Source: Candidatus Omnitrophota bacterium (GTDB lineage: Bacteria; Omnitrophota; Gorgyraeia; JAHJTE01). From it: a stretch of DNA of 64,000 bases. Below are positions 40,081 to 57,560 of this stretch, piece after piece. The stretch is from the NCBI GenBank assembly GCA_040753675.1, contig JBFMEB010000002.1:41888-105887 (forward strand), written 5' to 3'. Position 1 is the stretch's first letter. The number at the start of each line of letters is the position of its first letter. The position numbers and the translations under genes were made by a program. The notes under the pieces were generated by a model. That model was not told where the DNA came from and did not search any database. It was given only the letters and a program-made list of their open reading frames with translations.

Positions 40081-40095
40081 AGACTAATCACCTCT

Positions 40096-42577: not shown

Positions 42578-42698
42578 AACTTATTCACCTCCTTTTCGAT
42601 TTCTCTTTTATCTCCCGCGCAAGAAAGAAGAAACAGCAGAAAATTATTATTGCAAAAAGCGATGCTCCCATGAAAATTAAAATGGACATTTTCATAAT

Positions 42699-42893: not shown

Positions 42894-42905
42894 TTTCTAT
42901 TTCCC

Positions 42906-44321: not shown

Positions 44322-44340
44322 TTGCTTTCCTCCTTGCTTT

Positions 44341-44898
44341 TTAAGGCTGACAAATTTTCAATCCTTTTCTTACAAATCTCTCAAAATCTTTTAAGGCTTT
44401 CTTCTGAATCGGGTTGATATGAACTTCTGGCCGCTTATCTTTTACGAAATTAATTGCATCTTTTGTATTCATCTTCTGCGTTAGAATTAAAAAACTTGCT
44501 ACAAAGGTTAGAGAGCGGCTGTGGCCGTGTTCGCAATGGACATAGGTTTTTATCTTCTGGTCAGTTAAAGATTTTAAGAAACAGCTACCAGCTAAAAGCT
44601 GTTCAGGCGAAAGCGGCTTGTGCTCTTTTGTAGGAAGCCACAAGTAAAATTTTACCCCGAAAGGCGTATCAATCTTCTCTCTTTCTAAACTTATATCTGC
44701 CCTTATTCCTTTTTTAAGTAATTCTTTAATAAACCTCTTTTCTTCACAGCATTTGTTTGTGCCTATGTAGATATATTTGGTAATCTTAGAATAGCCAAAA
44801 GGCAAATCATCCGGATGGCGCATTATTTCCTCCCCAAGAATAGATGAAAGAAGCAACAAAGAAACAATAAAATCACCGCGATTAGATAAATTATCCAA
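44341..44898 (-). CDS. dual-specificity/protein-tyrosine phosphatase-like protein
   Basis: CX5R P-loop VHCEHGHSRS. Confidence 0.55.
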   Translation of the reverse strand: MDNLSNRGDFIVSLLLLSSILGEEIMRHPDDLPFGYSKITKYIYIGTNKCCEEKRFIKELLKKGIRADISLEREKIDTPFGVKFYLWLPTKEHKPLSPEQLLAGSCFLKSLTDQKIKTYVHCEHGHSRSLTFVASFLILTQKMNTKDAINFVKDKRPEVHINPIQKKALKDFERFVRKGLKICQP

Positions 44899-44902
44899 TC
44901 TT

Positions 44903-45490
44903 TCATTCCGCAGTCTCTTTTATTTCTCCGGGCGCACTGGCTTTATAACCAGTTTTATTTACGGCTTCAATGAGCTTGTTTAAATTTGTCTTTTTAGGGT
45001 CGAAGGCAACCTTAACTTTTCCTTCTTTAGCTGAGGCAGTGGCTTCAATTACACCATCTACTTTTTTAAGGCTAGATGAAACAGTAAGTTCACAAGTCAA
45101 ACAAGTCATTCCTTTAACTGGAATAATAATACTTTCAAGATTAGCTACAGAGGTTTTTGGGATAATACTGCTTGGCTTAGCTGTATAGGTATACAAATTT
45201 AAACCTACAAAGAAGGCGACAATAATAGTTGCCACTATTAAAGTGATTAGAGTTGCTTGCTTATTCTCCATCTGGCAACCTTTTAAGTTACAGGCCCTTC
45301 TTTCCTTAAAATAGTACTTCCAAGCAATGATAATTAACAAAACACCCGCACCCACAAACCACCAGTGATATTTCCCAATCACTGCGCCTATGCCAAGACT
45401 CCCTAATCCTACCATAACCAGCAAAAGTGGTCCCACACAACAAATCGAAGCAAAGATCGCTGAAAATATACCTAAATTTTTTGCTTTCAT
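44903..45490 (-). CDS. MerT-like membrane protein fused to C-terminal HMA (MerP-like) domain
   Basis: N-terminal TM with vicinal CC (ASICCVGPLL). C-terminal GMTCLTCE heavy-metal-associated fold. Confidence 0.55.
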   Translation of the reverse strand: MKAKNLGIFSAIFASICCVGPLLLVMVGLGSLGIGAVIGKYHWWFVGAGVLLIIIAWKYYFKERRACNLKGCQMENKQATLITLIVATIIVAFFVGLNLYTYTAKPSSIIPKTSVANLESIIIPVKGMTCLTCELTVSSSLKKVDGVIEATASAKEGKVKVAFDPKKTNLNKLIEAVNKTGYKASAPGEIKETAE

Positions 45491-45556
45491 AGAATACCTC
45501 CAACCCGCAGGAGGAAAGGAAACACCCTTAAAATGCTCCTATCCTCCTTCTAGAAT

Positions 45557-45805
45557 TTACGCAAAGAGACTTTTTACTTCTGCCAAACTCGGCTTTCCCA
45601 TCAGTCTAATCTTACCATCCACAACTACCGTAGGAACAGCCTTGATTCTATAATCCAAGGCTGGCTCACAGCATTCATCACCTTGGCATCTTCTTTCAAT
45701 TATCTCGCATTCACTACAAGCCTCTTGCCTTAAGATGCGTAATGTATCTTTGCAAAGAGGACAATCTGCTGTGAATACCTCAATTTTTCTCTTCATTTGA
45801 AACAC
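45557..45805 (-). CDS. glutaredoxin/thioredoxin-like small redox protein
   Basis: CPLC active-site-like motif near the N-terminus, 82 aa. Confidence 0.45.
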   Translation of the reverse strand: MFQMKRKIEVFTADCPLCKDTLRILRQEACSECEIIERRCQGDECCEPALDYRIKAVPTVVVDGKIRLMGKPSLAEVKSLFA

Positions 45806-45810
45806 CTCCT

Positions 45811-46107
45811 TTACTTTGCAAACTTATAGATTATATCCATAAGTTCATTATAGATTTCTTCTTGTTTCTCCTTACGTTTAGACTGCATTGCATCGGTAGC
45901 ACATATCTCTAAATAATTTCGCATCAGAACCTTACTTACACCTCTTAGGGCTTCGAAGGTAGAGGAGACCTGTTGCAGTATATCCAAACAGTAACGTTCA
46001 TCTTCTATCATATTTTTCATACCTTTAATTTGCCCCTCAATACGGCTTAAACGATCTAAAAGTTCCGATTTTCTTTCTTTGGAAATACAGCCTTTTTTTG
46101 TAGCCAT
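45811..46107 (-). CDS. CsoR/RcnR/FrmR-family metal-sensing transcriptional repressor
   Basis: LDRLSRIEGQIKGMKNMIEDERYCLDILQQ... matches the DUF156 signature including the conserved Cys. Confidence 0.8.
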   Translation of the reverse strand: MATKKGCISKERKSELLDRLSRIEGQIKGMKNMIEDERYCLDILQQVSSTFEALRGVSKVLMRNYLEICATDAMQSKRKEKQEEIYNELMDIIYKFAK

Positions 46108-46212
46108 TTTTAGCCTCCTATATAGATATACTCCCTACCACTATAAGTATACCCTATAAAAAAGATTTGTCAAGAGAATTCTTTTCTTGGATATTGAGTG
46201 TAGCAAACCGAG

Positions 46213-46446
46213 CTAAAGCCTGCCTAATGAGAGCCTTATAGACATTACTAGATACTCAAGACATCTATCACAACCAAGTAAATGTTTTATAATTCTGTTT
46301 CGTTCTTTTCTACTTAATAATCCCTCTACAAAGCAGGCCAAAGTTTCTTCATCTGGACATCTCCTCTTGCGCTGAGGGAGATTCTTCTTCCAATGCCTGT
46401 AGACAACCCGAATAAGGTTTTCTAAGTGACTATTCTTTAATTTCAT
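46213..46446 (-). CDS. zf-HC2 (anti-sigma-factor-type) zinc-finger protein
   Basis: CPDEETLACFVEGLLSRKERNRIIKHLLGCDRC matches the H-x3-C-x2-C anti-sigma zinc finger. No TM segment. Confidence 0.45.
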   Translation of the reverse strand: MKLKNSHLENLIRVVYRHWKKNLPQRKRRCPDEETLACFVEGLLSRKERNRIIKHLLGCDRCLEYLVMSIRLSLGRL

Positions 46447-46805
46447 TTAGACAAAAATATCATAAGAAGTATCCGTCGTAATCTCTTCTTCCATTTATTC
46501 CAGGCCAAGAGATTTGGATTCCTTCTTCGCCTTTTACCTACTTTGCTAAATCTTTCCAGCCAGCGGTCAAATCTTATGGAGAGGATATCGCCAATGCCAT
46601 TGCCACAGCCATAGATGAGGATTAACCAGACATGGTGCAAATTCTCTACCACAATCACGATTACATAGTACCAAAGTAAAATTGAGATAACTGAAACGAT
46701 AAAGCTTAAAATCTGCCTATTCTTTTGTATCGTCTTGGTGTTGAAGGCAGAGAAAAAACTTTCCAGTGCTCCTACAATAAAAATCTTGATAGCATTTAGA
46801 ATCAT
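46443..46805 (-). CDS. hypothetical membrane protein
   Basis: Hydrophobic helices, basic C-terminus. 4-bp overlap with the downstream gene. Confidence 0.35.
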   Translation of the reverse strand: MILNAIKIFIVGALESFFSAFNTKTIQKNRQILSFIVSVISILLWYYVIVIVVENLHHVWLILIYGCGNGIGDILSIRFDRWLERFSKVGKRRRRNPNLLAWNKWKKRLRRILLMIFLSK

Positions 46806-46808
46806 AGA

Positions 46809-47174
46809 TTATCTTTTTCCTTCATTAGCAATTCTATCGCCGATAAAGTAAACAATCGCCGCATCACGTATAAATCCGATTATCTCTTTGAAGTCATCTT
46901 TTAAGGTATGATATTTCGAGACCATTACGGTTGTCTCGGCTTCATATTTCTGGCTTAATTCTTTGCTTAATTCTTCAGGGGTCTTATTCTTGCAGGATAT
47001 CTCCCCTGCTAAAGGAAGGCTTATCTTCTGGTCTGGGCGGACGATAGTCTTTTCATCTAATTTCTTCCAGATGACAACCCTTAATTCGTCTCCCACTCTT
47101 AAGCGATAGTCGCCTGCTGTGGCGCAGCCGGAAATAATAATTGAAATGCATAAAATTAAAGCAACATGTTTCAT
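46809..47174 (-). CDS. lipoprotein with polysaccharide-export (Wza N-terminal, Poly_export)-like domain
   Basis: Lipobox IISGC. YRLRVGDELRVVIW...ISLPLAGEIS pattern. Confidence 0.5.
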   Translation of the reverse strand: MKHVALILCISIIISGCATAGDYRLRVGDELRVVIWKKLDEKTIVRPDQKISLPLAGEISCKNKTPEELSKELSQKYEAETTVMVSKYHTLKDDFKEIIGFIRDAAIVYFIGDRIANEGKR

Positions 47175-48223
47175 CTCGATATCTCCTTAAATTCCGTTAT
47201 GGTTAAATCTGCATGGGCAACATAAAGGCTCTGATTCTTTAATTTCTCTAAGAATTCACTTGGACAATAGGAAAGGATGAGTTTATTTCCTTGATTGGGG
47301 TCTATTCTGATGACTTTGTATTCCTTCTCCTCGAATGACCAGAGGATGTCTTTTATGTTCTCGTAGCCTTCGTAGAAGATAAAGCCAGAGATTATGGAGT
47401 TTTTAGGAATATCTATTGAGTCAAAGAGGCAGTAGGAGTATTCCTTGTCTGAGACCTGTTTTTGGATTTTCTTTCCTAAGATGACATTTATCTTGTTTAT
47501 GATGATGGCTGAGTAGGCCCTATAGGTTACAAGGTAGATTCTGTCTTTGTTGTCTTCTATGATTAGGCCTTCATCTAAGACAGCTAATACAGAGAATTCC
47601 TCATCTACCGGCATCTGGGATTCAGCCCAGATGCCTTTTATTCTTACTTTGATGAGGTAATTCTCGGAGTATTTCTTTGCTTCCTCTATGGCGCCGTAGG
47701 TGGTCTGGGAAATTCTATAGAATAAAGACTTATAGCCGATAAAGGATAAGGGTGTGGTTATAGTTACAAGGAAAATCAATATGGCAAGCAGGATATATTC
47801 CCTCTTTGAGTTTACCTCAATACGCAAGGATTTATTCTCTGGAAAGACAAATCTTGAGGGGCTTGGGTAAAAGAAGGGAACTCCAGATATATTCGCCATA
47901 TCGAGCATAATATGGGAGATAATGCCTATGATTAGGCCTGCGTATTTAAGCAATCCTAAAAAGAAGATAAAGGGACTGAAAAGAAATAGGCTTATTATGA
48001 TAAATATCCAAGAATGGGTAATCTGTCTGTGGCCATATTTCTGCTCAATTATCTTAGAAGGTGGGAATATCTTGCCTATGGCTGATTTAGGGGTGTCTAT
48101 ATCTGGTAAAAGAGAGCCTATACCGCTTAATGCTAAGGTTGTGGTATTTGGCTCTATTCCTAAGCTGGTTAGGATAAACTCTGTTAAAAGCACTCCAAAG
48201 GATATATGGGTAACTGAGATCAT
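47171..48223 (-). CDS. membrane protein, N-terminal DUF457/YdjM-like metal-dependent hydrolase region
   Basis: MISVTHISFGVLL...LLPDIDTPKS start typical of the DUF457 family. Several TM helices. Confidence 0.4.
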   Translation of the reverse strand: MISVTHISFGVLLTEFILTSLGIEPNTTTLALSGIGSLLPDIDTPKSAIGKIFPPSKIIEQKYGHRQITHSWIFIIISLFLFSPFIFFLGLLKYAGLIIGIISHIMLDMANISGVPFFYPSPSRFVFPENKSLRIEVNSKREYILLAILIFLVTITTPLSFIGYKSLFYRISQTTYGAIEEAKKYSENYLIKVRIKGIWAESQMPVDEEFSVLAVLDEGLIIEDNKDRIYLVTYRAYSAIIINKINVILGKKIQKQVSDKEYSYCLFDSIDIPKNSIISGFIFYEGYENIKDILWSFEEKEYKVIRIDPNQGNKLILSYCPSEFLEKLKNQSLYVAHADLTITEFKEISR

Positions 48224-49179
48224 TGCTGGGCTCCTCTTCTTGCCTGTCTGTAAAGTAGATACCGGATAAATATGCCTATGCCTGTTAAGGCGCCAAATAA
48301 GGCGTAACCTTGGTATTCGCCAAAGCCTCTGTATACGAATCTCATCACGATAAAGAAGGCAAAGATTAGAATCACAAATGGCGAGGCATCAATCTCTTTT
48401 ATGCCGCTTCCGTGGATGAACATCTCTCTGACATAGGATTTTGTTATAACTTTTTGGGTCTTGGCGCGGTTTAGGGTTTCAACGATTGATAAGGGTATGC
48501 CTGAGGTATTGGCTATGACTTGATTGATGAAGAAGTCTCTGCATTTGACTTTTAGACGTTTTAATCTGATCAATCTATCTACAAGCAGTTTTGATTCATC
48601 CTTTGTTAGGGGTTCTATTTCGATGATATCAAACTGCCAGAAGAATCTTCGTAAGGTCCTTATTCTTCTTATGAATTGGCAGGCGCCGAAGATAATGCAG
48701 AGGCTTGAGAGCTCTTGTAATATGTCTGCGGTAGATGAGGTGATTTCCTCTAAGTGGTCAAAGATGAGGATAAAGGGCCTGGTTTTTGATTTTTCTTCTA
48801 GAAGTAGGATTACCTCCTCAGTAAGTTCTGTGACGGTTAAGCGTTTAATCTGTTTTTGTTGTTTCTGGGAGACTTTTTTCTTTAAGGTTATGTAAAGATT
48901 GATAAGCGTTTCTTTGACGGGTTTGAATTTCTCGATATAAAGATAAGGCCTTCTTTTTTCTTTAAGATGCTGGCAGAGGAGCTTTAAGATATGGGTCTTA
49001 CCTGTGCCGGGCTTTCCTAAAAGAAGGGTAGGAATTCCTTCATCTAAATTCTTGATGAGCTTCTTTAGTTCTTCTTCTCTGCCTATTGTGAAGTTAAGGA
49101 GATGTTGATCCATTGGTAAAGTCTTCCTTTCTAAAGGAGAAGGAAAATACCTTGTCGTAGACAGCGCCTTGGAATACAT
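48220..49179 (-). CDS. AAA family ATPase (ExeA/TniB-like) with C-terminal membrane helices
   Basis: Walker A LLLGKPGTGKTH, Walker B LIFDHLEE. Confidence 0.6.
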   Translation of the reverse strand: MYSKALSTTRYFPSPLERKTLPMDQHLLNFTIGREEELKKLIKNLDEGIPTLLLGKPGTGKTHILKLLCQHLKEKRRPYLYIEKFKPVKETLINLYITLKKKVSQKQQKQIKRLTVTELTEEVILLLEEKSKTRPFILIFDHLEEITSSTADILQELSSLCIIFGACQFIRRIRTLRRFFWQFDIIEIEPLTKDESKLLVDRLIRLKRLKVKCRDFFINQVIANTSGIPLSIVETLNRAKTQKVITKSYVREMFIHGSGIKEIDASPFVILIFAFFIVMRFVYRGFGEYQGYALFGALTGIGIFIRYLLYRQARRGAQQ

Positions 49180-49762
49180 AAGTTATCTGGATTGAGACTT
49201 TGTAGTAGGGCTGGTCTGTTATAAGATAGAGTTTAAAGTCTGCCTCTGGGCCTCTTTTTAGGTTCTGGCCTACTACCCCTACGCTTGAAAGGACATATCT
49301 TATCCTGTCATTTGAGATTTTTACAGAGATATCGGATAAGATTTCGATGAAGATATCTTGTATCTTCTCAGCTGATGAGACTTTAATTTTCAAGATATCG
49401 CCTTTTAGGTCTGCCTTTACATCTAAGCCGACATCAGGGCCTTTTGGTTCGATTAAGGGAACGAAGGTTTCTTTCATAGTCTTATATTCTCCTATCCATT
49501 CTTTTACTGTGTATTGGACTGTGAATTTGGTTTTTATGTTAGATACATTTATCCTCTGCCCTTGCTTTAGGCCTCCTAAGTAGCGGTAGAAGGGAAAAAT
49601 TATTTCCAGGTGAAGAATATCCTTTTTTCCTGTGTTTATGAGGTATCTTCCATCGTAGATGAGCTTGGATTTTGGAGAATAGGTCTTCTGTTCTTCTTCG
49701 GCATAGAGAAGGCTTGTTGCGATAAAGAGAATTAGGATCAAGGTTATCCATTTTGGCTTCAT
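49094..49762 (-). CDS. secreted hypothetical protein
   Basis: Signal peptide MKPKWITLILILFIATSLLYA. Confidence 0.4.
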   Translation of the reverse strand: MKPKWITLILILFIATSLLYAEEEQKTYSPKSKLIYDGRYLINTGKKDILHLEIIFPFYRYLGGLKQGQRINVSNIKTKFTVQYTVKEWIGEYKTMKETFVPLIEPKGPDVGLDVKADLKGDILKIKVSSAEKIQDIFIEILSDISVKISNDRIRYVLSSVGVVGQNLKRGPEADFKLYLITDQPYYKVSIQITYVFQGAVYDKVFSFSFRKEDFTNGSTSP

Positions 49763-49967
49763 TTAGTTCTCCTGATTGTCTATATCTACGATATATTCAG
49801 AGCTCTGATAGTGGATTGAGATTACCCTTGAGTCACGAATTTCGATGATTATCATTCCCCTTTTTGTGCCTTCAATCTTCGATTTAATCCAAACGATTAA
49901 TTTGTTGTGTAAGGGTGCATGTGTTGTGTTCCAGTCCTTGGTCATTTTAGAACCCTCCTTTCGTTTT

Positions 49968-50510
49968 TTATTTGCAGTCTTCCAAGAGAGAATTGAAATA
50001 CCGGATAAATTCCTCTGCGACTTGTTTTGATTTAATGAGCACATTCGATTCGTTGTTCTTGGATAAGGCGTAATAAGACCAGTTTGTGCTTCCTATGATT
50101 GTGATGTAGCGGTCTATGACGATGAGTTTGTTGTGGGTTGAGGTATAAAGGCTGTCGTAGTAGACTTTGATACCTCTATTTTCAAGCACCTCTCCTGTTT
50201 CATAGTTTTTGTCTGAGTTAGCTTTTCCGAAGTCTTTTGACTGTTCAAGGATAACTATTACTTTAACTCCCCTTTGAGTTGCATCGGCTAATGCTTCGAT
50301 AAGAAGATTTGTGGGGGTTGAATAATATTTACGATAATACCTTGCCTCATACATAACGATATAGATTGATTCCTTGGCTCCAGATATAGCCTTGTGCACT
50401 ACCTCAAAGTAGTCTTGATTATTCAAAGGCAATACATCATCGGCTGGAAGGGCGAATACAATTTGAGTGATGGTAAGTAATGCTACTAAGGTTAATATTA
50501 ACTTTCTCAT
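49968..50510 (-). CDS. secreted phospholipase-D-family (Nuc-like) endonuclease
   Basis: Signal peptide. HKD motif HNKLIVID...GSTNWS. Confidence 0.75.
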   Translation of the reverse strand: MRKLILTLVALLTITQIVFALPADDVLPLNNQDYFEVVHKAISGAKESIYIVMYEARYYRKYYSTPTNLLIEALADATQRGVKVIVILEQSKDFGKANSDKNYETGEVLENRGIKVYYDSLYTSTHNKLIVIDRYITIIGSTNWSYYALSKNNESNVLIKSKQVAEEFIRYFNSLLEDCK

Positions 50511-50512
50511 TT

Positions 50513-50833
50513 TTAGGGCCTCCTTTGAATTAAGTTAAGAAAATCTTTTAGGTTTAAGATTATGTAGTTGGCCTTATCGTTTTTGTACTTAAAGACCAGA
50601 AGCGGTATCCTGCCCTGAGCTTGTGCTTCTTTTTCAATTTTCTTAAGCCAATCTTTTTCTATCGCAATCTGCTTCTTGCCAGATGAGCCGCGAAGTTTAC
50701 ATTCAATTAAAAACTTATCTGTAATCACATCACCAGGCATAGAAGACAAGCTTCCACTTAAAGGAATTCTTTTACCTCCTATGAGTCTTGCTATTCTTCT
50801 TTCCATTGCTTTGTGGGTATTTTTGTGTGTCAT
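50513..50833 (-). CDS. Hjc-like Holliday-junction resolvase / PD-(D/E)XK nuclease
   Basis: GxERRxARLIGG...GS...DV...IECK...pattern of archaeal-type Hjc resolvases. Confidence 0.45.
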   Translation of the reverse strand: MTHKNTHKAMERRIARLIGGKRIPLSGSLSSMPGDVITDKFLIECKLRGSSGKKQIAIEKDWLKKIEKEAQAQGRIPLLVFKYKNDKANYIILNLKDFLNLIQRRP

Positions 50834-50931
50834 TTGTGTTTGTGTGTTTTAAATATAAATATAAAGCGAAAATCTTGAGATACCTCCAAAACCCTCCCAC
50901 CCATCGCATACTTTTTAAAAAACTATCCCAC

Positions 50932-51270
50932 TCATTGCACAGTTTTAGGGGTAATCTCACCTTGGCAGTGGTTGATATTGGCTAATGTGCCTTTACCTTG
51001 TCTATTAGGGTTCTTTCCTAACCGGTAAGGATAAAGAGCGCAGTCTGTAAAATTGCACTCTTTGACTTCCTTCCATTCAAACCCAGAGCAGTCATAACAG
51101 CGCATCTTTATTGCTTTAAGGACCGGCTCTTTAAAGCCTTCTGCTCTTTTTCCCTGTCTTAAAGGATGGATGGGGCAATCTTCAGCCGGGCAAAGTTTTA
51201 CTTCCTTTGGCTGATCACCACAGCACCAGAAGCAATACTTTTTAACTGCGTATAATGGACCTGTTCTCAT
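50932..51270 (-). CDS. Cys-rich hypothetical phage protein
   Basis: Multiple CxxC/CxxxC motifs. Confidence 0.3.
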   Translation of the reverse strand: MRTGPLYAVKKYCFWCCGDQPKEVKLCPAEDCPIHPLRQGKRAEGFKEPVLKAIKMRCYDCSGFEWKEVKECNFTDCALYPYRLGKNPNRQGKGTLANINHCQGEITPKTVQ

Positions 51271-51896
51271 CTTGCCACCTCCTCGCCAAATTCCTGCCTT
51301 ATAACTTCGCCTATAAGAACCGGCTCTTTTAGGCGCTCTTTAAAATTGGATTTTCTGTTTTTAAAGAATTGAGATTGAGAAAAATTCCCCTTTTCTTTAA
51401 TACTTTCTTTATATATATTTCTTTCTTTATTTTGTGTGGTGTCCTGCAAGACACCTTTTAAGGTGTCTTGGGGGACACCACCTGGTGTCTTACAGGACAC
51501 CTCTGGGGTGTCTCTCAAGACACCACCTTTTAAAGTTATCCACAACTTCCACTGTGGATATCTCTTATTTAAGCCAAGGATGTTTTTGGTTCTATTTTTC
51601 TCTTTGACAAGCACTCGGTCGTTGATTAACTGCTCTACTACCTTTTTGACATAGCGCTTGTTTAAGCCGGTTAGATAAGAGATAACTCCGTAACTTATCT
51701 CTGATTTTTTCTTACGCCAGCCATAGGTCTTTCTCATAACGACCAAGAGCACTTTAATCTGGGCAGCAGTGAAAGGATAAGCGATAATTGCCTCTAAAAG
51801 CTCATTGGCAATTCGCGTATGACCTTTCTCAAGCTGGGGGCTACCTATTCTCAAAGTCAAACTCCTTCTGATACCTGATGCCAAATTTATCCTCAA
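51267..51896 (-). CDS. phage replisome-organizer/replication initiator (lambda O-like N-terminal HTH)
   Basis: N-terminal HTH region (VISYLTGLNKRYVKKVVEQLINDRVL). Gene body contains four ori-type iterons. Confidence 0.55.
   Translation of the reverse strand: MRINLASGIRRSLTLRIGSPQLEKGHTRIANELLEAIIAYPFTAAQIKVLLVVMRKTYGWRKKKSEISYGVISYLTGLNKRYVKKVVEQLINDRVLVKEKNRTKNILGLNKRYPQWKLWITLKGGVLRDTPEVSCKTPGGVPQDTLKGVLQDTTQNKERNIYKESIKEKGNFSQSQFFKNRKSNFKERLKEPVLIGEVIRQEFGEEVAR
51438..51524. repeat. four iterons GGTGTC-N6-GACACC (putative phage origin)
   Basis: 18-bp units at 51438, 51462, 51484 and 51507, spacing 22-24 bp. Each unit has perfect 6-bp inverted arms. Confidence 0.7.
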
Positions 51897-52197
51897 CTGC
51901 CTTGCTTAATCTCTTGGCCCTGTTGGCCACTTCTTTTACTCTTGACCAGTACTGCCTTAGACATTGGAGCGCTTCATCTTTATCTGTGATAAGGTAGAAG
52001 CCGTAAGGGTAATTGACTGATGAGGCAATGGGTATCTCGTGGTAAATGACAAGATTTGCTACTGCTTTTCTAATCTTACGCGATGAGGCTAGGGTCATCC
52101 TTTCTAACTCCTGAACTGTAATAGGATTATCCTTACCCTTATGGCACTCAAGAATATGAAGAATTGTCTGCTCTAAACTGTTCATCTTAGGAGGCAT
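51841..52197 (-). CDS. hypothetical phage protein
   Basis: ORF only. Confidence 0.3.
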   Translation of the reverse strand: MPPKMNSLEQTILHILECHKGKDNPITVQELERMTLASSRKIRKAVANLVIYHEIPIASSVNYPYGFYLITDKDEALQCLRQYWSRVKEVANRAKRLSKAVEDKFGIRYQKEFDFENR

Positions 52198-52822
52198 TTT
52201 GTAAGTAACCTTTCAAGATATCGATGAATTTTGAGGCTTGGGATTTAGTTAAATCAGCTGATGAGATAACTCCGAAGTTCTTCTCTAAGATTTCCATATA
52301 GTCCTCATCAGTTAGGTTAAGCCTCAGGCTAAGCATATGGATGTATTTGCTCTGTGAAGGAGTTATCTTTTCTTCATCTGATTTTGGCTTAGGAATTACC
52401 GGCTCTTCTGTATTTGGTTGTCTTGAAAGCGCGTCTTTTACTTCCTCTGCTGTTGCTATACCTCCACCTAAAAGACCAATCCCAAAGAAACCTAAACATC
52501 TGCCGTAGGCGGAGGTCTCAGCATTCTCATAGGGGTTGGATTTATCAACTGTAGTCTGACCATAGGCACCGGCAGAGGCTTCGGCTACTCCGAAGATTTC
52601 TGAGAAAACCTTGACGTAGCAAATGATGTTTCCTTCCGGGTCTTTTTCAAATCTTCTTGAGAATTTGAATTTCTTATTCTGTTCTTTATGTATATCAGTA
52701 AATTCCTTGACTCTGCCGTCGACCATCATATATTCGTTGGTTACGGTCTTATAACTTCCGTCTTCTTGTTTTTGTTTATGGGTTAGCTTCTGGATGAACT
52801 TGGAGTAGTCTTTCTTTTCCAT
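52187..52822 (-). CDS. possible phage single-strand annealing protein (Erf/Rad52-like)
   Basis: Weak resemblance (…AYGRCLGFFGIG…). Position beside the replication module. Confidence 0.3.
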   Translation of the reverse strand: MEKKDYSKFIQKLTHKQKQEDGSYKTVTNEYMMVDGRVKEFTDIHKEQNKKFKFSRRFEKDPEGNIICYVKVFSEIFGVAEASAGAYGQTTVDKSNPYENAETSAYGRCLGFFGIGLLGGGIATAEEVKDALSRQPNTEEPVIPKPKSDEEKITPSQSKYIHMLSLRLNLTDEDYMEILEKNFGVISSADLTKSQASKFIDILKGYLQNAS

Positions 52823-52833
52823 TGGGGGCCTCC

Positions 52834-53160
52834 TTATTTTGATTTTGTTGTCCCTGGTTTAAAATTTATGGTCCTCAGTAAACCTTCTATTGCCGGATGA
52901 GGATGAAGATTTTTCTTGTCATCTTTTAGGTCAAAGATAATCCCTGCGCCGAGGATAGTTTCTAACCTGTCCATTGACTTGTAGTAGATATCCTCAATGG
53001 AGTTGGCTATCTCCCAGATGAGTTTATTATCGGCTTTCCGGGTCAGGAATATCCCGCCTAAGCATAATGCGATGTCTTTAAAAGTGTCATTGACTAGTTC
53101 ATAGATTTGGTATTCTTTTGAGCTACGCATCTTGTCACCTCCGCTTTTTGTTGCTCTCAC
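52834..53160 (-). CDS. hypothetical protein
   Basis: ORF only. Confidence 0.3.
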   Translation of the reverse strand: MRATKSGGDKMRSSKEYQIYELVNDTFKDIALCLGGIFLTRKADNKLIWEIANSIEDIYYKSMDRLETILGAGIIFDLKDDKKNLHPHPAIEGLLRTINFKPGTTKSK

Positions 53161-53202
53161 CCTTAATATGTCAATCTTGGGGCAAATTGTGACAAAGAAT
53201 TT

Positions 53203-53955
53203 TTAAAATTTTTCCTTGCCAAGATATGTTCGTATGGCTTTTTGTGCCCTTGCTTTCTTTTGGCGGATTGCTGCATAAGATAGACCCTTTAGTTCTTGGG
53301 ATACATCTTTCATGGACCTGCCATAGACCTTGGTAGCCAGAAGGATATATTTATCAGTTTCAGAGATAACGCCTAATTTGACTAAATTATCAAGTAAAGA
53401 AATAATCTCTTGAGGGTCAACTTTAGCCGGTATAGAGGGAATGCATTCTGGATGTATCGCCAATTCCTGCTCAGAGCCGAGTTCTTTAAAAAGGGCTGTA
53501 AAATAATCCCTTAACTTGTTACGCAGCCTGCCTAAGACTTTTGAGGCGAGCTTTGTTTTGTCTTTGTTTAAGTCAATCTGGCTTAATTCTTCAAAGAATA
53601 AGGTTACAATCTGACACCAAAGGTCCAATTCTCCATACGAAGCAAATTGTTTTGCCCTTGATTTAAATTGAAAGAATATCTTGAGCAAACCGGGCCTAAA
53701 AAGAATTAGTAAATATGAACCGACTGACTTAGATTCCTCTTGGGACTGATATTCCAAGATAAGGCTTGATAGGATTTCATCGTTGAGTTTGAAGTTAGGA
53801 TTTCTCTGGTTATGCAGGCAATCTATAAGATCCTGTGGTGTAGGATAGGATTTAATTGAGACGTGTTTTTCTCTGATTGTTTCGTAGAGTGCGATAAATT
53901 TTTCTGATGAGATTTCATTTTCTACTTCCCTTAGAAGCTTTCTGATAGACTCCAT
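53203..53955 (-). CDS. HTH protein with sigma-70 region-4-like C-terminus (possible phage sigma/regulator)
   Basis: C-terminal LKGLSYAAIRQKKARAQKAIRTYL. Confidence 0.35.
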   Translation of the reverse strand: MESIRKLLREVENEISSEKFIALYETIREKHVSIKSYPTPQDLIDCLHNQRNPNFKLNDEILSSLILEYQSQEESKSVGSYLLILFRPGLLKIFFQFKSRAKQFASYGELDLWCQIVTLFFEELSQIDLNKDKTKLASKVLGRLRNKLRDYFTALFKELGSEQELAIHPECIPSIPAKVDPQEIISLLDNLVKLGVISETDKYILLATKVYGRSMKDVSQELKGLSYAAIRQKKARAQKAIRTYLGKEKF

Positions 53956-54037
53956 AGTTCTCCTCGCCTAGAAAGCCCGCCTGTGGCGGACAGGCAGGGT
54001 CTCGGAGAACCTCGGAGCTTTCTTTTTTAGTTAGTTT

Positions 54038-54265
54038 TTAGAATTTGGTTATGGTTTTACATTTTTTGCATTTGATAGATACTAAGTATCTAGTTTGACG
54101 TTCTGCTATCACATCCTTTCTGTGTTCATTTGCGTCAGAAATAATTTTTCTGGTAGTCTCTGCTAATTTTCTATTACATTTCGGGCAGCGGATTTCATAC
54201 ATTGGTAAATCTCTATAAAAAGAAAAAGCCCAACCCCAGGCTATTACCTGAAATTGGGCCTTCAA
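54038..54265 (-). CDS. zinc-ribbon (Com-like) small protein
   Basis: CPKCNRKL...CKKCKT. Confidence 0.4.
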   Translation of the reverse strand: MKAQFQVIAWGWAFSFYRDLPMYEIRCPKCNRKLAETTRKIISDANEHRKDVIAERQTRYLVSIKCKKCKTITKF

Positions 54266-54301
54266 ACCTAAATAATTGGCTATGGACCTATAAAGACTTT
54301 A

Positions 54302-54448
54302 TTATTTCATAATCTCAACTTTATGTTCGCGCTTACAGCGCTTGCATTTAACATAGATTTCTTTGCCTTTTATAGTAAATAAATACCGGTTACAATCGCA
54401 ACGGACCTCTTTAGTATCAGTGCTTTTGTCTTTAACTAGTACCTTCAT
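54302..54448 (-). CDS. zinc-ribbon small protein (48 aa), paralogous in style to 54038-54265
   Basis: Hand-translated MKVLVKDKSTDTKEVRCDCNRYLFTIKGKEIYVKCKRCKREHKVEIMK. Confidence 0.3.
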   Translation of the reverse strand: MKVLVKDKSTDTKEVRCDCNRYLFTIKGKEIYVKCKRCKREHKVEIMK

Positions 54449-54553
54449 AGCAAAATCCTCCTTTCAGCGTGAATATCTTCCAATGGGATTTTGCCAGGGA
54501 GGGGTAGCGTTTCCCGGGAATTCGGGAAGGGCTGGTTCATCTAGCAAGTCAGG

Positions 54554-55168
54554 TTAATATTTTCTGTAGACTCCGATTACTTTGCCAAGGATGCTTATTG
54601 TAGCGTCTTCGGGATGAAAGGCAAAAGGCGGTATTGCAGGGTTTTCCGCCTTTAGGGTTATAGTATCATCATTTTTATAAAAACGCTTTACAGTTGCCTC
54701 ATCATTTATTAAGGCAACCACAATTTCGCCATTTTCTGCTATTGGCTGTTGTTTGACAATTACAAAGTCACCGTTATAGATACCAGCGTTTATCATACTA
54801 TCACCCTGAACTTTTAAGGCAAAAATATTCTCTCCTTTAGCCCAAGTTTTATCTATGGCGACATAGCCTTCGATATTCTCAACAGCTAAGATAGGACTTC
54901 CTGCTGCAACTCTACCTAAAACCGGAACCTCCACTATATCACGTAAGGTCTTTCTAATTCCTGTAAGAAAAATGGCTCGCGCTTTATCTCTTTCTCTCTT
55001 TATATATCCCTTTTTTTCTAAAACAGCCAGGTAATCCTGGGCCGTGCCGAGAGCTTTAAACCCAAAGTGGGCCATTATTTCACGCAGTGTAGGCGTGGAA
55101 TTATTCTTCAGCCAACAGTCTTTAATGAAGTTTAGAATTTGCTTCTGTTTCCTGGTTAGGTCCTGCAT
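54554..55168 (-). CDS. LexA-family (S24 peptidase) repressor, prophage CI-like
   Basis: LexA DNA-binding domain (LTRKQKQILNFIKD..PTLREI...LEKKGYI), Ala-Gly cleavage site (VAAGSP), and Ser/Lys S24 domain. Start set at MQDLTRKQ with GGAGG RBS. The track ORF extends further. Confidence 0.8.
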   Translation of the reverse strand: MQDLTRKQKQILNFIKDCWLKNNSTPTLREIMAHFGFKALGTAQDYLAVLEKKGYIKRERDKARAIFLTGIRKTLRDIVEVPVLGRVAAGSPILAVENIEGYVAIDKTWAKGENIFALKVQGDSMINAGIYNGDFVIVKQQPIAENGEIVVALINDEATVKRFYKNDDTITLKAENPAIPPFAFHPEDATISILGKVIGVYRKY

Positions 55169-55297
55169 TAGAATCTGCCTCCTTCCAGCAAAAGTAATAT
55201 ACCATACATTTGTCTGGGATGTCAAGAAAAAAAATTTCACCCCCTCTGTCACAATTCCCATGTTTCTTGACATACTGTATATGAGGAAGGTAAATCA

Positions 55298-55504
55298 ATG
55301 GAAACCGGGAAAATAGCAAACAAAAAGGGTAGGCCAAGGGGCTCTAAAAAAGAATTCCGTATTACATACGAAATAGTGCCTCCTGGCACTATAAAAAGCG
55401 ACCTACCCATACCTCAGAAAACTCCCGACGAACGTTGGGAAGAAATAGTCGAAATTTGTTCTGCCATTATAGCCGAAGCTTATCAGAAAAAAGATTTTAA
55501 TTGA
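55298..55504 (+). CDS. small hypothetical protein divergent from repressor (Cro/Xis position)
   Basis: 68 aa, basic N-terminus. Confidence 0.35.
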   Translation: METGKIANKKGRPRGSKKEFRITYEIVPPGTIKSDLPIPQKTPDERWEEIVEICSAIIAEAYQKKDFN

Positions 55505-55560
55505 CATTTAGATACGTTCGGTTTACCATATGGTATCGTATATAACAATTAGGGAATTAG

Positions 55561-57210
55561 ATGAGCATAAAAAAGTGCGCACTATACATAAGGGTCTCTA
55601 CCTCACGACAGGCAAGTGTTGAAGATGGTTCTTTAAAGGCTCAGGAAGCCAGATTAAAAGCCTATGTAGATTATGAAAATACCAATAAAGGCGGCGACTG
55701 GGAAATAGCCGATATATATCGTGAGGAAGGGCGCTCAGCCAAAGATCTAAAACGACCTGAGTTTCAACGGCTTTTAGTAGATATAGAAGCCGGTAAAATA
55801 AACACCATTGTAATCTGGAAGATAGACCGCCTTACCAGATCCCTAAAGGACTTCTCCACCCTCTGGGAATTATTCAAAGAAAAAGGAATCCAGCTTATCT
55901 CCCTCAATGAAAAATTTGATACGAGCACAGCCCTGGGAAGGGCAATGATTAGCATTATCCTTGTTTTCGCCCAGCTTGAGCGAGAACAAACCGGAGAAAG
56001 AACTGCTGCAACAATGCAATACAGGGCGGAAAAGGGACTCTGGAATGGCGGTAGGATAATCGGCTATGACCTCGACCCAAACAATAAGGGCTCCCTTAAA
56101 ATAAATCGTGAGCAAATGGCAATAGTAAAAAAGGCCTTTGACCTTTGTATAGAAAAGGGTTCAGCAGGACAAGTGCAAAGAACACTTAACGACCTCGGCT
56201 ATAGAATGCCTACCTATAAATCAAGGCGCGGCAAAGAGCACGGCAACAACCTCTTTACCAAGCAGGCAGTTATAAGAATGCTTACTAACTCTGTTTATGT
56301 TGGTAAAATAAACTGGGGTGGTAAACTTTATCAAGGAAAACACCAAGGAACAATAGATGAAAAGAAATTTTTGAAGATACAGGAAATACTACGACAAAAT
56401 AGAAAGAGAAAGACTAATGATAAGTTACCACGGCAACACGTATATCTCTTGCAAGGCATTCTCCGCTGTGGAAAATGCGGTTCAATGATGACACCAAAAG
56501 GTGGCATAAACGGTTCCGGACACCCATACCACTATTATCAATGTACAAAAAATAGCCATATAGGGAATATTGCCTGCAAAGCTAAATACGTCCCGGCAAA
56601 ATCAATCGAGAATTTTGTCGTAGAAAGAGTAAAAGAGCTGACTACAAACGAAGAAGAAATTGCAAAGATGGTAAAAAATGCTAATAAATATAGTGATACA
56701 CAATTAAAGAAATTAATTGAAGATAAACAGAGCTTACAGAAGGCTATCCACCAAGTAAAAGAGAAACTTAACGCAATGGTCGACACTATAGAGAACGAAG
56801 GCGCTAAAGCTTTTAAGACTTTGCAAGAAAGAATGGCTGCATTGGAAAAACAGCGTGAAGAGTTAGAAAAGAAACTTGAGGTAATAGACTTTGAGGCTAC
56901 AAAAATCGAGCAGGAAAGAGTCAGTGCAGAAATAATGCAGGAGCACTTTAAATCCTTTAGGGATGTCGTTAAAAAGGCTGATGCTCAAAAACTAAAAGAG
57001 CTTCTTTTTCAAATCATAGAAATCATACAATGGCATGAAAATCCTGATGATAGCTCCTCAGGACACTGCAAGATTAGTTATTTCGAACAACCCCGCTTAA
57101 TTATTCCCCAAAATAAACTGAGCGAACAAGGTGGTAACCTACTGTTCGCTCAGAGTGACAACTGGCTCCCCCGCGAGGACTCGAACCTCGGACATGGTGG
57201 TTACACTTAA
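55561..57210 (+). CDS. large serine recombinase (integrase)
   Basis: Resolvase catalytic N-terminus (ALYIRVSTSRQ), recombinase domain, zinc ribbon (CGKCGS...C), coiled coil. The last ~20 codons are antisense to tRNA exon 2, so the true C-terminus is uncertain. Confidence 0.85.
   Translation: MSIKKCALYIRVSTSRQASVEDGSLKAQEARLKAYVDYENTNKGGDWEIADIYREEGRSAKDLKRPEFQRLLVDIEAGKINTIVIWKIDRLTRSLKDFSTLWELFKEKGIQLISLNEKFDTSTALGRAMISIILVFAQLEREQTGERTAATMQYRAEKGLWNGGRIIGYDLDPNNKGSLKINREQMAIVKKAFDLCIEKGSAGQVQRTLNDLGYRMPTYKSRRGKEHGNNLFTKQAVIRMLTNSVYVGKINWGGKLYQGKHQGTIDEKKFLKIQEILRQNRKRKTNDKLPRQHVYLLQGILRCGKCGSMMTPKGGINGSGHPYHYYQCTKNSHIGNIACKAKYVPAKSIENFVVERVKELTTNEEEIAKMVKNANKYSDTQLKKLIEDKQSLQKAIHQVKEKLNAMVDTIENEGAKAFKTLQERMAALEKQREELEKKLEVIDFEATKIEQERVSAEIMQEHFKSFRDVVKKADAQKLKELLFQIIEIIQWHENPDDSSSGHCKISYFEQPRLIIPQNKLSEQGGNLLFAQSDNWLPREDSNLGHGGYT
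57098..57142 (-). terminator. terminator downstream of tRNA-Asn
   Basis: Minus strand CTGAGCGAACA-N14-TGTTCGCTCAG followed by TTTATTTTGGGG. Confidence 0.5.
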
Positions 57211-57513
57211 CCCGAAATTACTTTCGGAAGTGGACTATATTATTGCCGGCGACTTTACGTTTCGGCAGCGGGTATATAGTCTCTGCACATTTACTCCGAT
57301 TTCTCGAAGACTTAGCTCAGGATTACCCCTGCTGTTTCGTTTTGCTTCGCAAAAGCGAAACAAAACGACAGGGGTTTCCCTGAATTAGCCCGCTTTTTCA
57401 TCTACGGTTTCCCGTAGAAGCTGCCATTTAAGATCCCTCGGCTTCGCCTCGGGATCAAATCCGCCTTTGGCGGATTTGACAGCCACCCGCTCTACCAACT
57501 GAGCTACAGGGGA
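57143..57513 (-). tRNA. tRNA-Asn(GUU) interrupted by a group I intron (exon1 57479-57513, exon2 57143-57183, CCA encoded)
   Basis: Exon1 is TCCCCTG-TA-GCTCAGTTGGTAGAGC-G-GGTGG-CTGT. Exon2 is TAA-CCACC-ATGTC-CGAGGTTCGAGTCCTCG-CGGGGGA-G-CCA. Acceptor and anticodon stems pair perfectly across the 295-nt insertion. U1-A72 and loop CUGUUAA match Asn. Confidence 0.75.
57184..57478 (-). ncRNA. group I self-splicing intron (no ORF)
   Basis: Core R element GTGCAGAGACTATA and S element AATATAGTCC (P7 pairing). P4-like GCGGG/AATCC. 5' exon ends in U, intron ends in G. Candidate IGS GCAGCU pairs with exon GGCUGU. Confidence 0.7.
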
Positions 57514-57530: not shown

Positions 57531-57560
57531 TATTTTATCTCAATGGGTGGATTAGTCAAG
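57531..57560 (-). promoter_or_regulatory. putative sigma70-type promoter for tRNA-Asn
   Basis: Minus strand TTGACT-16nt-TAAAAT, about 20 nt upstream of tRNA position 1. Confidence 0.4.

What the first reader, a model, noticed from the sequence alone, without database searches (positions are those of the whole stretch)
57143..57513. tRNA-Asn(GUU) gene split by a 295-nt group I intron in the anticodon loop
The 5' tRNA portion (acceptor, D arm, GGTGG-CTGT) and the 3' portion (TAA-CCACC, variable loop, T arm, CGGGGGA-G-CCA) lie 295 nt apart on the minus strand. The acceptor stem (UCCCCUG/CGGGGGA, U1-A72) and anticodon stem (GGUGG/CCACC) pair perfectly across the insertion. The insertion carries group I catalytic-core elements R (CAGAGACTA) and S (ATATAGTCC) that form P7. 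Splice-site rules hold: exon ends in U, intron ends in G, and IGS GCAGCU pairs with GGCUGU. Reconstituted loop CUGUUAA gives anticodon GUU. Bacterial tRNA group I introns are known for Leu(UAA), fMet, Ile and Arg. An Asn(GUU) host with insertion between positions 35 and 36 would be unusual.
Basis: partly seen in the sequence, partly recalled or inferred. Interest (0 to 1): 0.8.

Follow-up and report, generated by a model that had tools for sequence, protein, structure and literature searches.

The report
Group I intron in tRNA-Asn gene
An Omnitrophota asparagine-tRNA gene is split in its anticodon loop by a 275-base self-splicing group I intron; the finding is correct, but this intron type was described in 2020 and shown to splice in 2025-2026, so this is one more member.

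Summary
On the minus strand a tRNA gene spans 57513-57163. Exon 1 is 57513-57479, the intron is 57478-57204 (275 nt, not 295), and exon 2 is 57203-57163.

Rfam's group I model scores 79.8 bits against a cut-off of 50. The joined exons give a 76-nt tRNA-Asn(GUU) that matches annotated E. coli tRNA-Asn end to end.

Helices P1-P9 are supported by covariation in 39 homologous introns. The U·G wobble at U35 is kept in 39/39, which fixes the splice site at 35/36. This rejects ARAGORN's alternative call of Thr(UGU) at 33/34.

Williams (bioRxiv 2020) defined this class as 'Asn.4Ug'. Nakagawa et al. (mSystems 2026) showed precise in vitro self-splicing of a homologue.

The host is a Candidatus Omnitrophota MAG. 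That phylum does not appear for this class in the parts of the 2026 survey I could read.

Side finding: the tRNA's 3' end is the attachment site of a roughly 30-kb island (27231-57162). The island carries a large serine recombinase whose reading frame runs antisense through exon 2. The same arrangement recurs in about a quarter of related loci.

The parts
57479..57513 (-). tRNA-Asn exon 1 (positions 1-35; ends ...GGCUGU, U35)
   Evidence: ARAGORN folds the joined exons as tRNA-Asn(gtt). The joined exons match annotated E. coli tRNA-Asn over 76/76 nt at 76.3% identity.
57204..57478 (-). Group I intron, 275 nt; the last base, G at 57204, is the 3'-terminal G (omega-G)
   Evidence: RF00028 scores 79.8 bits at 57440-57211. 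Covariation on alignment A1. Fold z-score -8.85. Aligns in the same order with published tRNA-Asn 35/36 introns.
57163..57203 (-). tRNA-Asn exon 2 (U36 to the encoded CCA)
57477..57484 (-). P1 5' strand: exon GGCUGU plus the first two intron bases, CA
   Evidence: Pairs with 57419-57426. The U35·G wobble is kept in 39/39 sequences. The next pair covaries (CG 16, AU 8, GC 6, UG 1) and is paired in 102/102 metagenome loci.
57419..57426 (-). P1 3' strand / internal guide sequence (UG-GCAGCU)
57427..57476 (-). L1 insertion: two hairpins (AAAUCCGCC-AAA-GGCGGAUUU and GAUCCC..GGGAUC) in the loop of P1
   Evidence: Both hairpins appear in the unconstrained MFE fold. L1 is the variable site of this subfamily, at 6-384 nt, and holds an HNH-type ORF in the long versions.
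57401..57418 (-). P2 hairpin (UCUACGG-GAAA-CCGUAGA)
   Evidence: All 7 pairs show changes on both sides; 92.7% of cells are paired.
57389..57394 (-). P3 5' strand (AGCGGG); pairs with 57267-57272 (CCCGCU)
   Evidence: Five of 6 pairs show changes on both sides.
57317..57383 (-). P4-P5 with a long P5a hairpin extension
   Evidence: P4 is 100% paired with compensatory changes. The hairpin is recovered by the MFE fold.
57294..57309 (-). P6 hairpin (CUUCGA-GAAA-UCGGAG)
   Evidence: Covariation here is weaker because the MAFFT register is poor in this variable stem.
57275..57281 (-). P7 5' strand (R element, GACUAUA)
   Evidence: Five of 7 pairs are invariant in 39 sequences. Forms a pseudoknot with P3.
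57233..57239 (-). P7 3' strand (S element, UAUAGUC)
57245..57266 (-). P8 hairpin
57205..57231 (-). P9 hairpin (CCGAAA-GUAA-UUUCGG) closed by a 4-bp helix (ACUU/AAGU) that ends just before the 3'-terminal G
   Evidence: P9 has 6/6 pairs with changes on both sides. The closing helix has 4/4, for example ACUU/AAGU versus AAGU/ACUU versus GAAU/AUUC.
57532..57559 (-). Sigma-70-like promoter for the tRNA (TTGACT, 16 nt, TAAAAT)
   Evidence: Matches 10 of 12 consensus positions. Consensus match only.
57110..57153 (-). Terminator-like hairpin plus T run after the tRNA (CTGAGCGAACA..TGTTCGCTCAG TTTATTTT)
   Evidence: Read from the sequence. The scan tool did not list it, presumably because its loop exceeds the tool's 8-nt limit. 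It lies on the island side of the att core.
55561..57210 (+). Large serine recombinase, 549 aa, convergent with the tRNA; the ORF runs antisense through exon 2 and stops 7 nt inside the intron
   Evidence: Pfam domains Resolvase, Recombinase and Zn_ribbon_recom. Same arrangement in 16 or more genome loci and 19 metagenome loci.
57163..57178 (-). Proximal att core: the last 16 nt of the tRNA (CCTCGCGGGGGAGCCA)
   Evidence: Direct repeat with 27215-27230.
27215..27230 (-). Distal att core: remnant of the tRNA-Asn 3' end (CCTCGCGGTGGAGCCA, 15/16 identical), followed by a terminator hairpin
   Evidence: About 0.02 such matches are expected by chance in the window (my estimate).
27231..57162 (.). 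Inferred integrated island of about 30 kb. It holds the recombinase, a LexA/cI-like repressor, phage-type replication genes, an exonuclease, the Pho/Pst genes, and an IS transposase
   Evidence: The boundaries are inferred from the direct repeat. No empty site from the same species was found.

Best explanation
This is a tRNA-Asn(GUU) gene of a Candidatus Omnitrophota bacterium, interrupted between anticodon positions 35 and 36 by a 275-nt group I intron.

Proposed mechanism:
1. The precursor is transcribed from a sigma-70-like promoter about 20 nt upstream.
2. The intron folds into the P1-P9 core.
3. The internal guide sequence UG-GCAGCU pairs with exon bases 30-35 plus the first two intron bases. 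This presents U35 in a U·G wobble.
4. A free guanosine attacks after U35.
5. The 3'-terminal G (57204) then takes the same guanosine-binding site in P7, and the exons are ligated.
6. Ligation restores the anticodon loop CUGUUAA and a normal 76-nt tRNA-Asn.

What is shown here: the sequence, the model match, the tRNA fold, the covariation of the helices, and the splice-site register.

What is inferred: catalysis itself. This rests on homology to introns of the same class and insertion site that splice precisely in vitro (PMC13011429).
For: - RF00028 scores 79.8 bits against a cut-off of 50, full model length, and is the only Rfam hit in the window.
- The joined exons give tRNA-Asn(gtt) in ARAGORN. 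They align 76/76 nt with annotated E. coli tRNA-Asn genes. U1-A72 and the discriminator base G73 are, from my own knowledge rather than a check here, the usual features of bacterial tRNA-Asn.
- On 39 homologous introns, 79.5% of cells are paired, against 49% or less when the partners are slid. There are 462 double-sided changes against 168 in shuffles (0/500 shuffles reach this).
- U35·G is kept in 39/39 sequences, while U33 sits in a Watson-Crick U-A pair in 38/39.
- The pair next to the splice site covaries and is paired in 102/102 metagenome loci.
- The unconstrained MFE fold recovers P1, P2, P3, P4-P6, P8 and P9, with z = -8.85.
- The intron aligns in the same order with published tRNA-Asn 35/36 introns of Nitrospirota and Bipolaricaulota.
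- Homologues self-splice precisely at 35/36 in vitro, and a G-to-C change of the 3'-terminal G blocks exon ligation (PMC13011429).
- Host phylum: the window's carbamoyl-phosphate synthase large subunit (CarB) is 100% identical to an NCBI Candidatus Omnitrophota MAG protein.
Against: - No RNA data or splicing assay exists for this locus.
- I could not test whether this is the genome's only tRNA-Asn gene. The window holds no other tRNA.
- The window's intron lacks the roughly 34-nt stretch between P7 and P3 found in the published IA1 members, which I read as P7.1/P7.2. I did not assign its structural subgroup.
- The terminal G before TAA was part of my search pattern, so its invariance across the loci is not independent evidence.
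- P6 and P8 show weak covariation in the MAFFT alignment.
Confidence: 0.93

Rival explanations
1. The gene is tRNA-Thr(UGU), with the intron two bases further 5' at position 33/34. This is ARAGORN's call when it searches for introns.
For: - ARAGORN -i returns Thr(tgt) with a 275-nt intron at 33/34.
- The shifted boundaries also put a U before the intron and a G at its end, because of the GT...TG|T repeat at the two junctions.
Against: - In P1, U33 pairs with A (38/39 sequences), while U35 pairs with G in a wobble (39/39).
- The pair just inside the intron covaries in the 35/36 register.
- The tRNA body matches E. coli tRNA-Asn over its full length. It has U1-A72 and G73. From my own knowledge, bacterial tRNA-Thr usually has G1-C72 and A73 instead.
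- The same mis-call by ARAGORN and tFind is documented. It was corrected by sequencing spliced products of homologues (PMC13011429).
Confidence: 0.02
2. The intron is a decayed relic that no longer splices, so the locus is a tRNA pseudogene and an intact tRNA-Asn gene lies elsewhere in the genome.
For: - No expression data exists for this locus.
- The window's intron carries a 50-nt L1 insertion and lacks the stretch between P7 and P3 seen in published relatives, which I read as P7.1/P7.2.
- The rest of the genome was not available to me.
Against: - Every conserved core element is intact: the J3/4, J4/5 and J8/7 junction sequences, all 7 P7 pairs, the U·G wobble and the terminal G.
- All helices pair perfectly in this sequence.
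- The exons are undamaged, and a strong promoter match sits upstream.
- L1 insertions of 29-131 nt are common in the subfamily.
Confidence: 0.05

Closest known systems
tRNA-Asn(GUU) group I introns at position 35/36: class 'Asn.4Ug' of Williams 2020 (bioRxiv 10.1101/2020.01.27.920355), characterised by Nakagawa et al. 2026 (mSystems, PMC13011429)
   Same: - Same host tRNA, same insertion site, and the same U(-1) and 3'-terminal G.
- Same guide sequence, GCAGC.
- Same order of P1, P2, P3, P4-P6, P7, P8 and P9, with recognisable sequence similarity.
- Standard tRNA finders miss it, and ARAGORN's intron search mis-calls it as Thr(UGU) 33/34, as the paper reports for homologues.
   Different: - The host phylum is Omnitrophota. 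The 2026 survey of complete genomes lists 35/36 introns in Patescibacteria, Cyanobacteriota, Nitrospirota, Bacillota_A, Bipolaricaulota and Pseudomonadota. The one Omnitrophota entry I found in its supplement is an fMet 33/34 intron; that file was cut when stored.
- The window's intron lacks the roughly 34-nt insertion between P7 and P3 seen in the published IA1 examples, which I read as P7.1/P7.2.
- It has a 50-nt two-hairpin insertion in L1.
Classical bacterial tRNA group I introns: cyanobacterial tRNA-Leu(UAA) 34/35, tRNA-fMet 33/34, Azoarcus tRNA-Ile and Agrobacterium tRNA-Arg 36/37 (subgroup IC3)
   Same: - Small introns of about 200-300 nt without an ORF, in the anticodon loop.
- P1 is built from anticodon-arm bases.
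- Self-splicing with guanosine.
   Different: - Different tRNA and different insertion position.
- The literature places most 35/36 introns in subgroup IA rather than IC3.
- I made no sequence comparison with these introns.
Integrative elements that use the 3' end of a tRNA gene as attB. Most encode tyrosine integrases; phage phiRSM is a cited case with a resolvase-like serine recombinase (title of reference 22 in PMC7192596; its attB was not checked here)
   Same: - The island next to this tRNA is flanked by the intact tRNA and a 16-nt repeat of the tRNA's 3' end.
- The recombinase gene lies at the island end that abuts the tRNA.
   Different: - The enzyme is a large serine recombinase.
- Its attP appears to lie inside its own reading frame, so the last 15 or so residues differ between the integrated and excised forms.

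Membership tests
Group I intron (Rfam RF00028) | Scores above the curated gathering threshold of the covariance model | tested here: met
   79.8 bits against 50, E 1.2e-18, model positions 1-253 of 253.
Group I intron (Rfam RF00028) | P1 formed by the 5' exon end and an internal guide sequence, with a U·G wobble at the 5' splice site | tested here: met
   GGCUGU-CA pairs with UG-GCAGCU. U·G is kept in 39/39 sequences, and the adjacent pair covaries.
Group I intron (Rfam RF00028) | Conserved core helices P3-P8, including the P3/P7 pseudoknot, supported by covariation | tested here: met
   P2, P3, P4, P5 and P9 show changes on both sides. P7 is nearly invariant. Overall 79.5% of cells are paired, against 49% or less when slid.
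Group I intron (Rfam RF00028) | A guanosine as the last intron base (omega-G) | tested here: met
   G at 57204, directly before exon 2. Its conservation across the fetched loci was imposed by my search pattern.
Group I intron (Rfam RF00028) | Guanosine-dependent self-splicing | not testable with these tools
   Shown in vitro only for homologues of the same class (PMC13011429).
tRNA-Asn(GUU) 35/36 intron class (Asn.4Ug) | The exons form a tRNA-Asn | tested here: met
   ARAGORN calls tRNA-Asn(gtt) on the joined exons. Full-length match to annotated E. coli tRNA-Asn. U1-A72 and G73 are present in the sequence.
tRNA-Asn(GUU) 35/36 intron class (Asn.4Ug) | Insertion between anticodon positions 35 and 36 | tested here: met
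   The P1 register puts the wobble at U35. The loop CUGU|UAA is restored on joining.
tRNA-Asn(GUU) 35/36 intron class (Asn.4Ug) | Sequence homology to described members | tested here: met
   Aligns in the same order with the Nitrospirota and Bipolaricaulota introns from the paper's supplement. Related to 51 cleanly parsed genome loci and 102 metagenome loci with a recognisable Asn 5' exon.
Group I subgroup IA (assigned in the literature to most 35/36 tRNA introns) | Extra helices P7.1/P7.2 between P7 and P3 (feature recalled from the Michel-Westhof scheme), or a best score with the IA subgroup covariance models | tested here: inconclusive
   The window has only 2 nt between P7 and P3', whereas the published IA1 relatives have about 34 nt more there. 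The subgroup models were not available to me.
tRNA-Thr(UGU) with an intron at 33/34 (ARAGORN's alternative) | U·G wobble at U33 in P1, and a tRNA-Thr body | tested here: not met
   U33 pairs with A in 38/39 sequences. The tRNA body matches tRNA-Asn.
Large serine recombinase integrative element (side finding) | Resolvase catalytic domain plus Recombinase and zinc-ribbon domains | tested here: met
   PF00239, PF07508 and PF13408, all well above their cut-offs.
Large serine recombinase integrative element (side finding) | Element bounded by att sites, with occupied and empty sites seen in related genomes | tested here: inconclusive
   In the window there is a 16-nt direct repeat (15/16 identical) at 57163-57178 and 27215-27230, but I found no empty site from the same species. 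Clean occupied/empty pairs exist for related elements: L213 versus L161, and L199 versus L162/L009.

The most novel reading that the evidence does not exclude
A diverse clade of large-serine-recombinase islands or prophages (24-38% identity over most of the protein in the best-aligned homologues) uses the 3' end of tRNA-Asn genes in Omnitrophota, Patescibacteria and other uncultivated lineages as its attachment site. All the tRNA-Asn genes I sampled contain the intron, because that is how the loci were selected.

Its attP lies inside the recombinase reading frame. Integration therefore replaces the enzyme's last 15 or so residues with a tail encoded antisense to tRNA exon 2 (...WLPxEDSNLGxGGYT).

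The untested novel reading is that this tail swap acts as a built-in switch between the integration and excision forms of the enzyme. The intron itself would remain an ordinary member of a known class.
Probability: 0.15. Interest if true: 0.55.

Novelty: new member of a known kind. Interest (0 to 1): 0.25.

Why it matters
There are three practical consequences.

1. Annotation. Default tRNA finders miss this gene: ARAGORN found no tRNA in the whole window. Intron-aware modes mis-name it Thr(UGU). A genome like this would appear to lack tRNA-Asn and would lose points for completeness.

2. Distribution. The published survey of complete genomes describes 35/36 introns as rare outside Patescibacteria. 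Here the class is also common in Omnitrophota MAGs and in metagenomes.

3. Island mapping. The hidden tRNA is an attachment site for mobile islands, so island-mapping tools that depend on tRNA calls would miss the roughly 30-kb island here.

None of this changes what is known about how group I introns work.

Tried and rejected
- ARAGORN's Thr(UGU) 33/34 call. Rejected on the P1 register and the tRNA body.
- A phage origin for the tRNA or intron. blastn of the whole gene against 50,697 phage records found nothing.
- The recombinase as a protein query against IMG/VR found no relatives. A DNA pattern did find one viral contig, L120, with the same tRNA-recombinase arrangement.
- A longer second copy of the tRNA's 3' part in the window. 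Nothing longer than the 16-nt remnant turned up.
- Exact-protein look-ups to name the contig, using the magnesium transporter MgtE, the recombinase, and the CarB hit P0001. None is on record. The phylum came instead from a 100% identical NCBI protein name.
- A same-species empty site to fix the island's ends. The best metagenome relative is only 78% identical, and only across the tRNA gene.
- Subgroup assignment (IA or IC3). I could not do this because the subgroup covariance models are not available. I only noted that the window lacks the insertion between P7 and P3 that I read as P7.1/P7.2.
- Direct repeats for other recombinase-bearing loci. My script missed the known L213 repeat, which has two mismatches, and it reported none for the other loci apart from one AT-rich 14-nt match in L007 that I take to be chance. 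Island sizes elsewhere remain unknown, except L213 at about 6.15 kb.
- Literature searches for serine recombinases targeting tRNA-Asn, or for group I introns in Omnitrophota, returned only incidental co-mentions.
Full report
**Observation**

The minus strand between 57513 and 57163 holds a tRNA gene in two pieces.
- Exon 1 is TCCCCTGTAGCTCAGTTGGTAGAGCGGGTGGCTGT, at 57513-57479.
- Exon 2 is TAACCACC...GGGGGAGCCA, at 57203-57163.
- They are separated by 275 nt (57478-57204).

ARAGORN in default mode finds no tRNA anywhere in the 64-kb window. Once the 275 nt are removed, it returns a canonical 76-nt tRNA-Asn(gtt). Rfam's Intron_gpI model is the only family that passes its gathering score in the window: 79.8 bits against 50, E 1.2e-18, 57440-57211 on the minus strand.

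**Which tRNA, and which splice site**

The junction sequences..CTGT|CAAA...AAGTG|TAA.., allow a second reading shifted by two bases. ARAGORN's intron mode takes that reading and calls Thr(tgt) with the intron at 33/34. Three results reject it.

1. In P1, the guide sequence UG-GCAGCU pairs with exon GGCUGU plus the intron bases CA. U35 sits in a U·G wobble in 39 of 39 homologous introns. U33 sits in a Watson-Crick U-A pair in 38 of 39.
2. The pair just inside the intron covaries in this register: CG 16, AU 8, GC 6, UG 1. It is paired in 102 of 102 metagenome loci.
3. The ligated sequence aligns over all 76 nt (76.3% identity) with genes annotated tRNA-Asn in 5,425 of 5,426 complete E. coli genomes. 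It has U1-A72 and discriminator base G73, which from my own knowledge are the usual bacterial tRNA-Asn features.

**Structure of the intron**

I placed P1-P9 on the sequence and counted them on a MAFFT alignment of 39 introns of 185-352 nt taken from the genome scan.
- 79.5% of cells are paired, against 32-49% when the partners are slid.
- There are 462 double-sided changes against 168 in shuffles (0 of 500 shuffles reach this).
- P2, P3, P4, P5, P9 and the 4-bp helix that closes P9 just before the 3'-terminal G all show compensatory changes.
- P7 (GACUAUA/UAUAGUC) is nearly invariant.

The unconstrained fold recovers P1, P2, P3, P4-P5-P5a, P6, P8 and P9, at -123.2 kcal/mol with z = -8.85. The centroid structure swaps P3 for P7, as expected for a pseudoknot.

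Two local features stand out:
- a 50-nt insertion of two hairpins in the P1 loop (57476-57427);
- a long P5a hairpin.

L1 is the variable site of this subfamily. It ranges from 6 to 384 nt, and about 25 of 102 metagenome introns carry a 338-384-nt L1. In the long L1 sequences I read, there is an HNH-type motif.

**How it most likely works**

A sigma-70-like promoter (TTGACT, 16 nt, TAAAAT; 57559-57532) would drive the precursor. The intron folds, guanosine attacks after U35, and the 3'-terminal G at 57204 then directs exon ligation. This restores the loop CUGUUAA.

The chemistry is inferred from homology. Nakagawa et al. showed precise in vitro self-splicing at 35/36 for a Patescibacteria tRNA-Asn intron, and a G-to-C mutant of the 3'-terminal G failed to ligate (PMC13011429).

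**Comparison with what is known**

That is out of date.
- Williams (bioRxiv 2020) extended the list to 21 settings. According to Nakagawa et al., these include the class Asn.4Ug, which is position 35/36.
- Nakagawa et al. (preprint 2025, mSystems 2026) found 15 tRNA-Asn(GUU) 35/36 introns in 95 complete Patescibacteria genomes. They documented the same Thr(UGU) mis-call by ARAGORN and tFind. They found 28 introns at 35/36 among 4,934 complete genomes, mostly of subgroup IA.
- Their supplement gives Nitrospirota and Bipolaricaulota examples labelled IA1. These align with the window's intron in the same order, from the guide sequence to P9. They carry about 34 extra nt between P7 and P3, which I read as P7.1/P7.2 and which the window lacks. 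I could not run subgroup models, so the subgroup here is open.

**Distribution**

At least 51 of them are clean CTGT|intron|TAA tRNA-Asn genes.
- By record title, these come from Patescibacteria, Omnitrophota (7), Planctomycetia, Limnocylindria, Bacteroidetes, Gammaproteobacteria-labelled MAGs and DPANN archaea.
Together with the one viral contig L120 that makes 121 loci, and 102 of them have a recognisable Asn 5' exon.
- The window's CarB protein is 100% identical to an NCBI protein named 'MAG... [Candidatus Omnitrophota bacterium]' on a 110,862-nt contig. The next named hits are also Omnitrophota.
- In the survey's supplement, the one Omnitrophota entry I found is an fMet 33/34 intron (the file was cut when stored).

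**Surroundings**

A 549-aa large serine recombinase gene (55561-57210, plus strand; Resolvase, Recombinase and Zn_ribbon_recom domains) converges on the tRNA. Its reading frame passes antisense through the terminator and all of exon 2, and stops 7 nt inside the intron.

To its left lie:
- a LexA/cI-like repressor;
- phage-type replication genes and an exonuclease;
- unexpectedly, a complete Pho/Pst gene set;
- an IS transposase.

At 27215-27230 the minus strand reads CCTCGCGGTGGAGCCA. This matches 15 of the last 16 nt of the tRNA and is followed by a terminator hairpin. I estimate about 0.02 such matches by chance. I infer a roughly 30-kb island (27231-57162) integrated at the 3' end of the tRNA.

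**The same arrangement elsewhere**

Homologous recombinases sit in the same convergent, overlapping position in:
- at least 16 of 119 genome loci;
- 19 of the 82 loci in the metagenome set that have at least 600 nt of downstream sequence. These 19 include the one IMG/VR contig, L120.

Most homologues are 22-38% identical to the window's enzyme.

Two occupied/empty pairs show where the element inserts.
- L213 carries a 6.15-kb element that is absent from the 99% identical L161. It is flanked by a 19-nt repeat that spans the last 9 nt of the tRNA plus 10 nt downstream. Two mismatches in the repeat place the crossover in TTGAACGA, just after the CCA.
- L199 is identical to L162, L009, L240 and L215 up to the last base of the tRNA.

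Joining the island ends in silico gives a 553-aa recombinase with a different 19-residue tail after the shared WL; in the integrated form that tail is 13 residues (549 aa). The same holds for L213, at 502 aa against 505 aa. So attP appears to lie inside the recombinase reading frame. Whether that has any function is untested.

**Verdict**

The finding is real and correctly interpreted, apart from the intron length. It is an ordinary new member, in Omnitrophota, of a class that has already been described and tested at the bench. The recombinase island at the tRNA's 3' end is the less expected part of the locus.

Noticed in passing
window 55561-57210 (+), with 57163-57178 and 27215-27230: A large serine recombinase converges on the tRNA-Asn and reads antisense through exon 2 to a stop 7 nt inside the intron. 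A 15/16-nt repeat of the tRNA's 3' end at 27215-27230, followed by a terminator hairpin, implies a roughly 30-kb island (27231-57162). Joining the island ends in silico changes the enzyme's C-terminal tail (549 aa versus 553 aa), so attP seems to lie inside the reading frame.
   Followed up: partly
L213 5396-11547 versus L161; L199 versus L162/L009/L240/L215; also L071, L103, L091, L007, L115, L121, L164, L132, L239, L193, L120: The same recombinase-tRNA-Asn arrangement recurs in 16 or more of 119 genome loci and in 19 of the 82 metagenome-set loci with enough downstream sequence, across several phyla. Most of these recombinases are only 22-38% identical to the window's. Two occupied/empty pairs place the crossover at or just after the tRNA's CCA end.
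   Followed up: partly
window 29322-38225 (-): A full phosphate-uptake set lies inside the inferred island boundaries: PhoU, PstB, PstA, PstC, PstS, a porin, a histidine kinase and two response regulators. This is odd cargo for a mobile element. Alternatively, the 16-nt remnant may date from an older or tandem integration.
   Followed up: no
L130 (L1 of 340 nt), L127/L143 (L1 of 214 nt), and about 25 further metagenome loci with introns of 527-579 nt: The long versions of this intron carry an ORF with an HNH-type motif (..CANCHREIHA..) in the loop of P1. L127 and L143 look like decayed remnants of it. The window's two L1 hairpins may be what is left after such a loss.
   Followed up: partly
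L001, L006, L064, L101 (also L038): Contigs labelled Pacearchaeota, Nanoarchaeota or Woesearchaeota carry the same 35/36 intron in tRNA-Asn genes. In the four parsed loci (L001, L006, L064, L101) the exons start GUC, so the first pair is G1-C72. All five end ..(G/A)CG and have no encoded CCA, unlike the bacterial U1-A72 type. This would argue against simple mis-binning of bacterial contigs. L050, labelled Methanosarcinales, has bacterial-type exons.
   Followed up: no
L008, L029, L030, L041, L055, L058, L067, L068, L087, L099, L100, L102, L108, L111 (Collinsella): Gut Collinsella genomes matched the pattern with a different exon 2 (TAATCAGTGGG...CACTGGCTCCA, discriminator U). This is not tRNA-Asn. 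I did not map the 5' exon or the intron length reliably.
   Followed up: no
window 59162-59855 (+) and 26575-27147 (-): Toxin-antitoxin-like genes flank the locus on the host side: a Gp49/HigB-like protein with an HTH partner, and a zeta-toxin-like ATPase next to the distal att remnant.
   Followed up: no
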